Assembly (NCBI GenBank): GCA_965203485.1
Contig: OZ241892.1
Location: 1,344,001-1,408,000 of the forward strand
Origin: Longimicrobiales bacterium
GTDB taxonomy: Bacteria; Gemmatimonadota; Gemmatimonadetes; Longimicrobiales; Gaopeijiaceae
Length of the DNA stretch: 64,000 nucleotides
Reading direction: 5' to 3'
Shown here: in pieces, positions 18,401 to 21,400 of the stretch
Layout of the letters: each line of letters starts with the position of its first letter
Numbering within the stretch: position 1 is the stretch's first letter
Made by a program: the position numbers

Positions 18401-21400
18401 GACCACTAGGTTGGCGAGGGCGCGCACCAGCGTCGGATAGCCTTGGGGGACGGGATTGTTGAACGGGTCCGGGAATTCGGTAACGGCGCACACGAACACG
18501 GCTTGGGCGTGCCGCCGCACGGGCTTGGGCCGCCCTTCGGGAAAGAAGTTCACGACGAGCTTGGCATCGTCCGAGTCGGCCACGAACCGGTGGCCGTTCG
18601 ATTCCATAACGGTCCGGAGCCCCTGGGAGAACCAGGAAAACGGAGCCGCACCGGCGTCGCCGGCGAAAGTGAAGTCCATAACGTGTGGAACACCTCGGTG
18701 GTTTGGCGTCGGTCCAGTCAACATATAAGGTCGCATCTTCGGGCGAGAAGCAAGCCGGGCGGCCCGCCCGGACCGCTTCCAGCCTCCGCCTTGCCGGGCC
18801 GCGCACTCCGTGCTCCCTGCCTTACGTGCCGCCGCTGGGTTGGCTACATTTCGGGCTCCCGCTCCGCTTGGACGGCGGAGCCCGTATGCCAGACTTGCGG
18901 ACCGAGGGACTCCGAATCCGATGAGACCGTACGAGATCGTCTACGTTCTGGATGCCTCGCTGGACCGGGACGCCGCCGCCGAGAAGATCGACGGCTTCCA
19001 CGAAGTTCTGGGCGGCGAAGTCGAAGCCGTCGACCACTGGGGCGTACGCCGGCTGGCCTACCCGATCGCGAAGGCCCGCTTGGCGTACTACGCGGTCGCG
19101 CACGTGAAGGCGGAGCCGTCCGCGTTGCCCGAGTTCGAGCGCCGGCTGAGGCTCGACGAACAGGTCGTCCGCTACTTGCTGGTGCTCAACGAGGGCCAGC
19201 CGACGTCCGGGGACTCGATCTTCGCGCAGGCGGCGAAGGCGGCCGAGGAGGACGCCGGCGGAGACGAGGGAACGCCCGGCAAGAACGGCGGCGACCCGAG
19301 CGCCGCGCCTGCCGAGACCGACGAGAACGGCGGTGGCGAGAGCCCCTCGACGGCGGAAGGCGGCGCCGATTCGGGAGACGAGACGCCCGCGCCCGCGGAG
19401 GCGCCGGGCGAGCCGGATGCCGGAGCGGCGGAGAGCGGCGAAGGGTCGAGCGGCTCGGGCGGCGGAACTGGGCCCGCCGCCGAGACCGGCGAGACCGCCT
19501 CGGGGCCGGGCGACGGAGCCGAGGCCGCGCGAGGCGAAGAGGGCGAGAGCGAACGGACGGCTCCCGTCCACGGCCCCCCGGAGTTTTCGGGCGCGCGAGG
19601 CCGAGGCCGCCGCCACGACGCGCCCCGCATCCTGCTCCTCGACTACAAGGACGTGGCGACGCTGTCCCACTTCGTGAGCGAGCAGGGCAAGATCCTGCCG
19701 AAGCGCACCACCAAGGTGACTGCCCGCTTCCAGCGCCGGCTCGGCACGGCCGTGAAGCGCGCCCGCTACCTCGCCTTGCTGCCCTACGTCCGCGACCACG
19801 GGAGCTGATCCCATGAAAGTCGTCTTGCGCAAGCGCGTGGCCAAGCTGGGCGACGCCGGCGACGTGCTCAGCGTCAAGCCCGGCTTCGCCCGCAACTACT
19901 TGGTCCCGCAGGGGCTGGCCTACGCCGCGTCGCCCGCCGCCGTCCGCGCCATCGAGGAGGAACGGCGGCGCAGCGCCGAGGAGGCGCGCAAGAACTACCT
20001 CGAGGCCAGGCGGCGCGCGGCCCGGCTGGAGGGCGTCGTCGTCACCGTCGCGGCCAAGGCCGGCGAGGCCGGGCGGCTCTTCGGGTCGGTGGGTCCCAGG
20101 GACGTGCTCGACGCGGTGCACGCGTCCGGCATCGACTTCCGCCTGGAGCTGCGGACGCTGCAGCTGGCCGATCCGATCAAGGCGGTGGGCGAGCACCGAG
20201 TCGGCGTTCGCCTGCACGCGGACGTGACGGCCGAGATCGGCGTCGTCGTGGAGGCCGAAGCGGATTGATTCCGGTGCGAAGGACATCCGCGCGTGCCTGA
20301 AGACCAGCAGCTCGCGATGATGCCGTCGGTGCGGCGGGCCGTCCGTTGCGCGATCGAGCGAAAGGCGCGGGACGTGACGGTCATGGACCTGCGCAAGCTG
20401 TCGTCCGTCACCGACTTCTTCGTGATCGCCACGGGCCGCTCCGACGTCCATGCGCGCACCATCGCCGAGCACGTCATCGACTCGTCCAAGCGCGACGGCA
20501 GGGGACCGGAGACGGTCGAGGGCCTGGACCAGGGACGCTGGGTCCTCGTGGACTACATCGACTACGTGGTCCACGTCTTTCAGCCGTCCGTGCGGGAGTA
20601 CTACCAGCTGGAACTTCTGTGGGGGGACGCGAAGACCGTCGTCGTGGAAGACGCTTGAGCGCCGGGTCCGCTGGCAACCGGCCCGGGGCCTTGCGGGCCG
20701 TGCCGGTCCGGCGGGAGGTCTCGTGAAGCTCAAGTCCCTGAAGATGCAGGGCTTCAAGTCGTTCCCAGAATCGACGCGGGTGGAGTTCCACGAGGGCATC
20801 ACGGCCGTGGTGGGGCCGAACGGATGCGGCAAGTCGAACATCGCCGACGCGGTTCGCTGGGTTCTGGGCGAACAGCGTCCGACCGCGATCCGCGGGGCGC
20901 GCATGGAGGAGGCGATCTTCCAGGGGACGGTTTCGCGCAGGCCGGTGGGCAGGGCCTCCGTCTCGCTTCTGGTGTCCAACGAGGATGGCACGCTTCCCGT
21001 GCCCTTCGAGGAGGTCGAGCTCTCTCGCGCAGTCTACCGCGACGGCGGCAGCGAGTACCGGCTCAACCGGACGCCGTGCCGGTTGCGCGACGTGGTGGAC
21101 CTGTGCCGCGACACGGGCCTGGGAGCGAGCGGGTACTCGGTCATCGAAGCTCGAATGATCGACGCCATCTTGTCGGGCCGGGCCGAGGAGAGGCGAGCTC
21201 TCTTCGAGGAGGCCGCGGGCATAGGCAAGTACAAGGACCGCCGCCGAACGGCGCTGCGCCGCTTGGATGCGTCCGAGATCGACCTGCAGCGGGTCGAGAC
21301 CGTCGTCGAGGAGGTGCGCTCGAAGGTCCGTTCGCTCGCGCGGCAACGGGGCAAGGCGCAGCGATGGAAGGATCTTCGGGCCCGCCGGCTGGTGGTGGAG

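What a model noticed while it worked through the whole genome (the two positions that open the first line are those of the whole stretch)
18921..19808. Ribosomal proteins bS6 and bS18 fused into one 295-aa polypeptide
Gene g01050 is a single open frame with a complete bS6 domain (residues 4-88), a 150-residue acidic Gly/Glu/Ala/Pro-rich linker and a complete bS18 domain (240-287); there is no separate rpsF or rpsR and no Met codon after the first. I read it as a natural covalent bS6-bS18 heterodimer that enters the 30S platform as one chain, an invention of the marine family Gaopeijiaceae that its sister families lack. A ribosome in which two neighbouring small-subunit proteins are one polypeptide has, as far as my searches show, not been described, and it bears on S6:S18 co-assembly and autoregulation.
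Evidence so far: pfam.tsv: Ribosomal_S6 E 4e-23 (4-88) and Ribosomal_S18 E 2e-21 (240-287) on g01050; no other gene has either family. Followed by rplI (g01051). Six-frame search with PF01084 (S18): the stop-to-stop frame around the S18 domain is 225-1249 aa in G000 and all 10 other Gaopeijiaceae genomes sampled, but 74-120 aa in all 20 genomes of the two sister families of Longimicrobiales and 74-181 aa in all 36 genomes of other Gemmatimonadota families. Protein database: 1385 proteins of 162-517 aa at E 1e-3; all 120 listed carry both PF01250 and PF01084, 219-345 aa; those with a source name are called S6 or S18 of Gemmatimonadota. Shine-Dalgarno use is ordinary (73% of genes with an RBS motif; 16S ends C [...]
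(Added by a program. Inside this text positions count along the whole contig: contig position 1,344,001 is position 1 of the stretch shown here. "Call 12" and the like, gene names such as g00115 and contig names such as C1 are that model's own, and its searches are not shown. The text may have been shortened before it was handed on; [...] marks where a part breaks off. The agent that wrote the report below was given it as the finding of a first reader that could run no searches.)

Follow-up and report, generated by a model that had tools for sequence, protein, structure and literature searches.

The report
Fused S6-S18 ribosomal protein gene
This bacterium and its whole family encode two ribosomal proteins that normally pair as separate chains (S6 and S18) as one protein joined by a long floppy acidic linker; this is a real and tidy variant, but similar fusions have arisen in other bacteria too.

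Summary
Window 18921-19808 (+) is one 295-aa ORF: a bS6 domain (4-88), a 151-residue acidic, predicted-disordered linker, and a bS18 domain (240-287). It is the only S6 and S18 in a one-contig genome and is followed by rplI.

Across 77 complete fused ORFs from public genomes there are 36 different spacer lengths, all in frame.

Three points are new here:
- A conserved structured 5' leader (18857-18909) has a CCG bulge and a sequestered SD. It resembles the S6:S18 autoregulatory rpsF leader and is also found upstream of unfused sister-family genes.
- The fused S18 has lost the CxxC...CxxH motif seen in 21 of 22 unfused Gemmatimonadota S18.
- The window's ORF has no in-frame start codon from which S18 could be made separately.

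The claim of uniqueness fails. Fused genes also occur in 4 of 121 Rhodothermales, plus one more reached separately, and sporadically elsewhere. Earlier notes of this scan list eight more cases on other DNA. I found no paper or solved structure describing such a fusion. Whether the chain stays uncleaved in the ribosome is untested.

The parts
18843..18850 (+). Possible -10-like box (GCTACATT) upstream of the leader
   Evidence: A CTAnAnT consensus is shared by part of the 39 aligned upstream regions. The sigma-70 consensus scan found 0 promoter-like sites in 18400-20800, so this part is tentative.
18857..18909 (+). Conserved structured 5' leader. It has an outer stem (U)CCC/GGG(A) that covers the SD-like GAGGGA, helix H1 (GCUCCGC.../...GCGGAGC), hairpin H2 (CCGU.../...GCGG) and a 3' bulge ACCGA at 18901-18905. 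I read it as an rpsF-leader-like operator.
   Evidence: RNAalifold on 39 loci predicts 14 pairs. 98.7% of cells are paired against 27-49% when partners are slid, and 19 cells change on both sides against 4.8 +/- 1.7 in shuffles (0 of 500 reach it). The single-sequence MFE fold gives the same three helices. The model R1 hits the 64-kb window once on the + strand (18818-18919, E 1e-16; this sequence is in the model), plus one weak 21-base antisense match inside the same leader (18861-18881, E 0.82). R1 also hits upstream of unfused rpsF in 6 of 12 sister-family loci at E 1.5e-8 to 1.7e-3. Rfam RF02893 does not match here, although it matches E. coli at 110 bits.
18921..19808 (+). Fused rpsF-rpsR ORF, 295 aa (P0001)
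18930..19184 (+). bS6 domain (residues 4-88)
   Evidence: Pfam PF01250, E 2.4e-22. AF2 pLDDT is 66-91 with a beta-alpha-beta fold. The best PDB sequence matches are bS6 chains.
19185..19571 (+). Variable acidic Gly/Ala/Glu/Pro/Ser-rich linker (residues 89-217)
   Evidence: It has no predicted secondary structure, and its 10-residue pLDDT block means are 31-52, lowest at its two ends and about 50 in the middle. Across 77 relatives the linker is 32-171 aa (median 44) with 39% D+E. It is always in frame, with 36 distinct spacings.
19572..19637 (+). Conserved junction motif [22 protein letters not shown] (residues 218-239). It is the remodelled basic N-terminal arm of S18 and has no Cys.
   Evidence: P219, P220, F222, G224, R226-R228, R230-H232 and P235 are invariant in 24 sequences. 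The P[PA]x[FY] motif and the Arg run are present in 77 of 77. The corresponding segment in unfused families reads M..RK.C..CE.G.
19638..19781 (+). bS18 domain (residues 240-287), including the invariant KRAR motif (279-282)
   Evidence: Pfam PF01084, E 1.2e-20. Invariant columns are listed. The best PDB sequence matches are bS18 chains.
19813..20268 (+). rplI (bL9), 4 nt after the fused gene's stop
   Evidence: Pfam L9_N and L9_C
20293..20658 (+). rsfS (ribosome silencing factor), context only
   Evidence: Pfam RsfS, E 2.8e-30

Best explanation
One gene, translated from one start codon, makes a single chain: bS6 domain, disordered acidic linker, then bS18 domain.

It arose at the base of family f1 from the ancestral arrangement still seen in the sister families. 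There, rpsF ends in a short poly-Glu tail whose GAGGAG codons serve as the Shine-Dalgarno of rpsR, followed by a stop and, a few bases on, the ATG of rpsR. The fusion came about by loss of that stop and of that start. The linker then drifted and expanded.

The two domains most likely dock on each other and on the uS15-primed central domain of 16S rRNA as the normal bS6:bS18 heterodimer does, with the linker looping out at the platform (inferred).

Synthesis is probably autoregulated. The single-chain product would bind a conserved leader that mimics the rRNA site (a CCG bulge next to a stem that sequesters the SD), as the two-chain S6:S18 complex does in E. coli (inferred from architecture).

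- Shown: gene anatomy, conservation, distribution, leader structure, and the absence of an internal start codon in this genome.
- Inferred: an uncleaved chain in the 30S, and repression through the leader.
For: - It is a single ORF holding both Pfam domains and the only copy of either in the genome.
- 35 of 35 f1 genomes are fused.
- Of 80 public loci, 77 hold a complete fused ORF, 1 is cut by a contig end but is consistent, and 2 carry frameshifts.
- 36 distinct Met1-to-YKD spacings are all in frame.
- In the window there is no in-frame ATG, GTG or TTG between residue 95 and the YKD motif.
- The position 10 codons before YKD varies among H, M, L, V and F across the family, with no SD at a usable distance.
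- In the sister families, rpsF with its acidic tail, then a stop, then the ATG of rpsR lie within a few bases of each other. In G442 the sequence reads GAGGAGGAG-TAA-ACC-ATG, in frame.
- S18's KRAR residues are invariant. They correspond to K60, R61 and R63, which contact the conserved cytosines in E. coli (PMC4647458, passages seen).
- AF2 gives a confident S6 fold and a linker with no predicted secondary structure and low confidence (block means 31-52).
- The leader is conserved in 38 of 39 aligned f1 loci with compensatory changes and is present upstream of unfused sister-family genes.
- Independent fusions with much shorter linkers in Rhodothermales (194-199 aa) show that the S6 C-terminus and S18 N-terminus can be joined.
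Against: - There is no protein-level evidence: no proteome, intact mass or ribosome structure of any member.
- A strongly conserved junction motif (PPEF-G-RGRRRR, 77 of 77) could be a processing site and not an RNA-binding arm.
- AF2 confidence for the S18 part is low (block means 39-57) and domain docking could not be read from the output.
- The leader is not matched by Rfam RF02893. My model R1 does not hit E. coli or the Rhodothermales loci. Homology to the characterised rpsF leader therefore rests on shared architecture only.
- In 43 of 77 relatives an in-frame ATG lies within 45 codons before YKD, mostly 10 codons before it. Internal initiation in those relatives is not strictly excluded.
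Confidence: 0.7

Rival explanations
1. The fused chain is only a precursor. It is made as one polypeptide, which guarantees 1:1 stoichiometry and co-folding, and is then cut in or near the linker, so that mature 30S subunits carry ordinary separate bS6 and bS18.
For: - The linker is long, predicted to lack secondary structure, hypervariable and therefore protease-accessible.
- A sharply conserved motif sits exactly at the linker/S18 boundary.
- From recall, not from a call: eukaryotic ubiquitin-ribosomal-protein fusions are made as precursors and then cleaved.
Against: - I identified no protease gene or known cleavage motif.
- Linkers as short as 32 aa, and near-linkerless fusions elsewhere, suggest the tether itself is tolerated.
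- The conserved motif aligns with the ancestral basic N-terminal arm of S18, which gives it another reason to be conserved.
Confidence: 0.17
2. S18 is also, or only, made separately by internal translation initiation within the ORF. Functionally the two proteins would then remain separate and the upstream 'fusion' product would be just S6 with a long tail.
For: - The acidic linker is rich in GAG/GGA codons that resemble SD sequences.
- 43 of 77 relatives have an in-frame ATG within 45 codons before the YKD motif, mostly 10 codons before it.
- Rhodothermales show that a short S18 starting 8 residues before YKD is viable.
Against: - In the window there is no in-frame ATG, GTG or TTG from residue 95 to YKD.
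- The position 10 codons before YKD is His (CAC) here and in many relatives, and Leu, Val or Phe in others.
- Where it is ATG, the nearest GGAGG lies about 20 nt upstream, too far to act as an SD.
- There is no stop codon that would end a separate S6.
Confidence: 0.05
3. The fusion is an assembly, sequencing or gene-calling artefact, or a decaying pseudogene.
For: - Two of 80 related loci carry frameshifts: L073 in the S18 domain and L077 in a repeat within the linker.
- Many fused ORFs from other phyla are single-contig singletons that keep S18's own Met.
Against: - The same architecture is seen in 35 of 35 family genomes, including many closed chromosomes.
- It is the only S6 and S18 copy in the genome.
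- The domain sequences are strongly conserved.
- The frame is kept across 36 spacer lengths.
Confidence: 0.01

Closest known systems
Canonical bacterial bS6:bS18 heterodimer (separate rpsF and rpsR products that pair before binding the uS15-primed 16S central domain)
   Same: Both Pfam domains are complete. The best PDB sequence matches are bS6 and bS18 chains of bacterial ribosomes. The KRAR RNA-contact motif is invariant. rplI lies downstream, as in E. coli.
   Different: Here the two are one polypeptide with a 151-residue linker, with no rpsR start codon and no ssb/priB in between. None of the 60 best PDB chains (of 131 matched) spans both domains; all are 52-129 aa.
RpsF_leader (Rfam RF02893), the operator bound by the S6:S18 complex that represses rpsF translation in E. 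coli (PMC4647458, abstract and passages; PMC10931766, section 2.4 passages)
   Same: It sits directly upstream of the start codon. It has a conserved CC(G) in a 3' bulge between a hairpin and a stem that pairs with the SD-like sequence.
   Different: The Rfam model gives no match at E<=1. The helix arrangement is a three-way junction. Protein binding is untested, and the repressor would be a single chain.
Other natural bS6-bS18 fusions
   Same: The domain order is the same (S6 then S18), rplI lies downstream, and the fused gene is the sole copy. Cases are Rhodothermales G461, G462, G570, G548 and G474; 27 of 30 distant two-domain proteins; and eight earlier scan notes (not checked here).
   Different: Those have short linkers (total length 149-240 aa). 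In Rhodothermales the fusion is sporadic (4 of 121) and not fixed in the order. Here the fusion is fixed in a whole family, the linker reaches 171 aa, and the fusion coincides with loss of the Cys/His motif.
C+ and C- (zinc-binding and zinc-free) forms of bacterial ribosomal proteins, including S18 (recalled from Makarova et al. 2001; not read here)
   Same: Unfused Gemmatimonadota S18 carry CxxC...CxxH in 21 of 22 retrieved. The fused form has no Cys in 77 of 77, so it is a C- form.
   Different: Here the C- form is the only copy and is covalently joined to S6. One unfused C- S18 also exists in the phylum (L191), so loss of Cys does not require fusion.
Eukaryotic ubiquitin-ribosomal protein fusions (eS31, eL40); recalled, and only listing titles were seen
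   Same: A ribosomal protein is synthesised as part of a longer fused precursor.
   Different: The partner there is ubiquitin and not a neighbouring ribosomal protein, and it is cleaved off. Cleavage here is unknown.

Membership tests
bS6 (Pfam PF01250 Ribosomal_S6) | Match to the family profile above the curated cut-off over the whole domain | tested here: met
   79.4 bits against a cut-off of 27; profile positions 2-89 of 90
bS18 (Pfam PF01084 Ribosomal_S18) | Match to the family profile above the curated cut-off | tested here: met
   73.8 bits against a cut-off of 21; profile positions 5-52 of 52
bS18 | Basic KRAR residues that contact the conserved cytosines of the rRNA and leader site | tested here: met
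   K279, R280, A281 and R282 are invariant in 24 fused sequences. Their role comes from passages of PMC4647458.
Natural bS6-bS18 fusion (single-chain heterodimer) | Both domains in one frame with no stop, and no second copy of either gene | tested here: met
   35 of 35 family genomes
Natural bS6-bS18 fusion (single-chain heterodimer) | The chain is present uncleaved in mature 30S subunits | not testable with these tools
   This needs ribosome purification with mass spectrometry or cryo-EM.
RpsF_leader (Rfam RF02893) | Match to the Rfam covariance model | tested here: not met
   No match at E<=1 in 18300-20400. Positive control: E. coli scores 110 bits.
RpsF_leader (as a functional class) | A conserved structure just 5' of rpsF with unpaired CC(G) beside a hairpin and an SD-pairing stem | tested here: met
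   It is also present before unfused rpsF in sister families.
RpsF_leader (as a functional class) | Binds the S6:S18 protein and represses translation | not testable with these tools
   This needs binding and reporter assays.
C+ (Cys-rich, presumed Zn-binding) S18 | CxxC near the N-terminus plus CxxH in the core | tested here: not met
   There is no Cys anywhere in P0001 or in 77 of 77 fused relatives. The motif is present in 21 of 22 unfused S18 of the phylum. That the motif binds zinc is recalled, not tested.

The most novel reading that the evidence does not exclude
In this family the platform of every ribosome carries an obligate single-chain bS6-bS18. Its 30-170-residue polyacidic, disordered loop stays attached next to the mRNA exit and the anti-SD region and tunes initiation. 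The covalent tether replaced the Cys/His (presumed zinc) knuckle that otherwise organises S18's N-terminal arm, giving a zinc-free platform. The same single chain acts as the autorepressor on a conserved rpsF-leader-like operator. If so, S6:S18 co-assembly and autoregulation would be directly testable with one protein.
Probability: 0.2. Interest if true: 0.6.

Novelty: new variant of a known kind. Interest (0 to 1): 0.4.

Why it matters
bS6 and bS18 are the textbook case of two ribosomal proteins that must pair before binding rRNA and that repress their own operon only as a complex. A lineage in which evolution has welded them together is a natural single-chain version of that complex.

- It shows that the pairing can be made unimolecular without loss of viability.
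- It offers a ready-made reagent for assembly and autoregulation studies: one protein and one conserved leader RNA.
- It shows one easy evolutionary route, namely loss of a stop codon between translationally coupled genes.

The family-wide fixation, the very long acidic loop and the coincident loss of the Cys/His motif are the features specific to this case. Because the same fusion recurs in other bacteria, and records already exist under automatic names, it is a neat variant and not a new kind of ribosome.

Tried and rejected
- **Single-protein scan.** The search for related loci with P0001 alone found no relatives. The alignment query worked.
- **Cluster look-up.** Looking up 10 distant fusions gave almost no names or taxa.
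- **NCBI labels.** Labels such as 'Gemmatimonadales' on some fused loci could not be mapped to family codes, because no kinship is given for genomes reached through loci. I therefore cannot say that all 80 public loci belong to f1.
- **Long S18 frames outside f1.** I first considered long stop-to-stop S18 frames outside f1 as possible fusions. Five checked f4 genomes have S6 and S18 in different frames. In G442 (f3) the tool reported the same open frame (268 aa) for both matches, but the DNA shows a TAA between the genes. I therefore did not trust that column and checked the 16 two-match f1 genomes by script.
- **L083.** The best hit for the Rhodothermales-type fusion turned out to be unfused. 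The fused genomes were found with a second scan.
- **Rfam.** Scans of the window, 12 sister-family loci and 2 Rhodothermales loci gave no ribosomal leader. The leader was found only by eye and by alignment.
- **Model R1.** It did not hit E. coli or the Rhodothermales loci.
- **AF2.** The fold gave low confidence for the S18 part and no read-out of domain docking. I ran no fold search or complex prediction, because textbook pairs tend to pass by likeness to solved structures.
- **Literature.** Yutin et al. 2012 (PMC3353972) holds none of the words fusion, fused or S18. The 2024 review PMC10931766 does not mention a natural fusion in the passages found. The Gaopeijia description (PMC11651109) has no hit for 'ribosomal protein'.
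Full report
**Observation**

The window holds an ORF at 18921-19808 (+) of 295 codons.
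- Pfam places a complete Ribosomal_S6 domain at residues 4-88 and a Ribosomal_S18 domain at 240-287, both far above the curated cut-offs.
- The 151 residues between them are rich in Gly, Ala, Glu, Ser, Pro and Asp.
- The protein has a single Met.
- rplI starts 4 nt after the stop and rsfS follows.
- Six-frame searches of the whole one-contig genome find one S6 and one S18 match, both here.

**Is it a real, translated fusion?**

At this G+C an open frame proves little, since other frames across the linker are open as well. Comparison across relatives is what decides it.
- An alignment of 24 relatives shows strongly conserved S6 and S18 ends and a hypervariable acidic middle.
- A scan of species genomes returned 109 relatives, of which 80 were kept. 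Of these, 77 hold a complete uninterrupted fused ORF of 206-345 aa, one is cut by a contig end but is consistent, and two carry frameshifts: L073 inside the S18 domain and L077 in a repeat of the linker.
- Over 77 sequences (76 of these loci plus the window's own ORF; L079 escaped the script's pattern), the distance from Met1 to the S18 YKD motif takes 36 different values, always in frame. That is not expected of a non-coding spacer.
- AF2 on the alignment gives a confident S6 fold (10-residue block means 66-91), a linker with no predicted secondary structure and low confidence (block means 31-52), and a helical but low-confidence S18 part (block means 39-57).

**Distribution**

- An order-level genome search with the fused profile covered 101 genomes.
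- All 35 genomes of family f1 (G000 included) are fused. 19 show one full-length match without stops. The 16 that gave two matches were fetched, and each reads as one frame.
- None of 33 f2 and 33 f3 genomes is fused. Four of these 66 are unpublished (G097, G409, G443, G452).
- G442 (f3) looked suspicious, because the tool printed the same open-frame length for both matches. Its DNA reads ...GAGGAGGAG TAA ACC ATG..., that is, two genes.
- Five f4 genomes with long S18 frames have S6 and S18 in different frames.
- In the phylum-wide sample, 400 of 401 genomes have an S18 match. The one without is an f1 genome that is 93% complete.
- I could not verify the family name Gaopeijiaceae, because the tool shows only codes. 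I also could not map the 80 public loci to families.

**How it arose**

In the sister families rpsF ends in a short poly-Asp/Glu tail followed within a few bases by the ATG of rpsR. The Glu codons (GAGGAG) supply the SD of rpsR. Loss of the stop and of the start codon gives the fused gene.

The conserved junction motif of the fused proteins (GPPEF-G-RGRRRR-EGPP, present in 77 of 77) aligns with the basic N-terminal arm of the unfused S18 (M..RK.C..CE.G).

One correlated change stands out:
- 21 of 22 unfused S18 retrieved from nine families of the phylum carry CxxC near the N-terminus and CxxH in the core.
- The fused proteins have no cysteine at all (77 of 77).
- From recall, that motif is the zinc-binding C+ form of S18. 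I did not test metal binding.
- One unfused S18 (L191, f4) also lacks the motif, so its loss does not require fusion.

**One chain or two?**

In the window there is no in-frame ATG, GTG or TTG between residue 95 and the YKD motif, so S18 cannot be started separately at a usual codon.

In 43 of 77 relatives an ATG lies within 45 codons before YKD, mostly 10 codons before it. That position is His here and Leu, Val or Phe elsewhere, and no SD lies at a usable distance. I read it as an ordinary variable residue.

Cleavage after translation cannot be addressed with these tools. No solved structure has a chain spanning both domains: the 60 best of 131 matched PDB chain sequences are 52-129 aa and match one domain each.

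**A conserved leader**

While listing the upstream regions I saw a near-invariant element just before the start codon. Aligning 39 loci and folding the alignment gives three helices:
- an outer CCC/GGG stem that covers the SD-like GAGGGA;
- helix H1, with compensatory changes at two pairs (7 and 10 sequences);
- hairpin H2;
- an unpaired ACCGA between H2 and the outer stem.

Support for this structure:
- 98.7% of cells are paired, against 27-49% when partners are slid.
- 19 cells change on both sides, against 4.8 +/- 1.7 in shuffles (0 of 500 reach it).
- The window's own sequence folds the same way.
- A covariance model of it hits the 64-kb window once on the + strand, plus one weak 21-base antisense match inside the same leader (E 0.82). 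It finds the element upstream of unfused rpsF in 6 of 12 sister-family loci (E 1.5e-8 to 1.7e-3), with a seventh weak match (E 0.15). The leader therefore predates the fusion.

[quoted passage not shown] It also matches the E. coli RF02893 structure.

Against that reading, Rfam's model does not match here, and my model does not reach E. coli or the Rhodothermales loci. Homology and function are therefore inferred.

**Not unique**

- The all-against-all representative search gave 8903 hits. Many of them are 150-240-aa proteins with two matched stretches at 33-45% identity. 27 of 30 that I tested carry both Pfam families.
- One coherent group comes from Rhodothermales MAGs. In a sample of 121 genomes of that order, 4 are fused (G461, G570, G548, G474), and G462 is fused as well. 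A further 34 have rpsF and rpsR in the same frame, separated by only 1-3 stops.
- A gammaproteobacterium-like group looks mostly like stop-loss read-through. 10 of 24 keep a Met directly before the usual S18 N-terminus. Most are single-contig singletons, so errors cannot be excluded there.
- The ESM Atlas holds Gemmatimonadota clusters of 162, 55 and 65 members with both domains, one of them auto-named 'Multifunctional fusion protein'.
- Earlier notes of this scan describe eight more S6-S18 fusions on other DNA, including whole orders or classes. I did not check those, but they agree with what I found independently.

**Literature**

- Six searches of the held library found no paper describing a natural S6-S18 fusion.
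- The passages I read in PMC10931766 and PMC4647458, and the word search of PMC3353972, do not mention one.
- Subscription journals and supplements were not searched.

**Verdict**

This is a real, family-wide, single-ORF bS6-bS18 with an unusually long acidic linker, a retained rpsF-leader-like operator and a cysteine-free S18 arm. It is a new variant of a known complex. It is of moderate interest because the same fusion recurs in other bacteria and the protein-level state is unknown.

Noticed in passing
L172 (G442:C623), and L168-L179 in general: In the unfused sister families the poly-Glu tail codons of rpsF (GAGGAGGAG) double as the Shine-Dalgarno of rpsR. In G442 the two genes are in the same frame, separated only by TAA ACC. 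One point mutation would fuse them.
   Followed up: yes
rows for G442; L172: the genome search printed open_frame_aa 268 with 'no stops' for both the S6 and the S18 match of G442, yet the DNA has a TAA between them (193 + 1 + 74 = 268). That column cannot be used alone to call a fusion.
   Followed up: yes
L168-L195 (S18 genes of nine Gemmatimonadota families): 21 of 22 unfused S18 carry CxxC...CxxH. One f4 genome (L191) has a Cys-free unfused S18. All fused forms are Cys-free. This may reflect a zinc-economy theme in the phylum.
   Followed up: partly
L077 2350-3400; L073 2350-3300: Two public MAG loci have a frameshift in the fused gene. L077's lies inside a tandem EGDEAA-type repeat of the linker, and L073's inside the S18 domain. 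These are probably assembly errors, but decay was not excluded.
   Followed up: no
(Rhodothermales, 121 genomes): 34 genomes have rpsF and rpsR collinear in one frame with only 1-3 stop codons between them. Their S18 is short: it starts about 8 residues before the YKD motif in L083.
   Followed up: partly
P0295: A 189-aa fused S6-S18 protein is filed in UniRef as 'bS6m' of the tsetse fly Glossina pallidipes. It is 52% identical to a gammaproteobacterium-like fusion, so it probably comes from a bacterial symbiont or contaminant in the insect assembly.
   Followed up: no
window 18843-18850 and A6 columns about 42-52: A CTAnAnT box lies upstream of the leader in part of the family and could be the -10 element of the operon promoter. 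The consensus promoter scan found nothing.
   Followed up: no
A6 columns 86-129 (for example L013, L025, L028-L042): In about half of the aligned loci, helix H1 of the leader carries a 30-45-nt insertion that looks like an extra hairpin. The window's subgroup lacks it.
   Followed up: no
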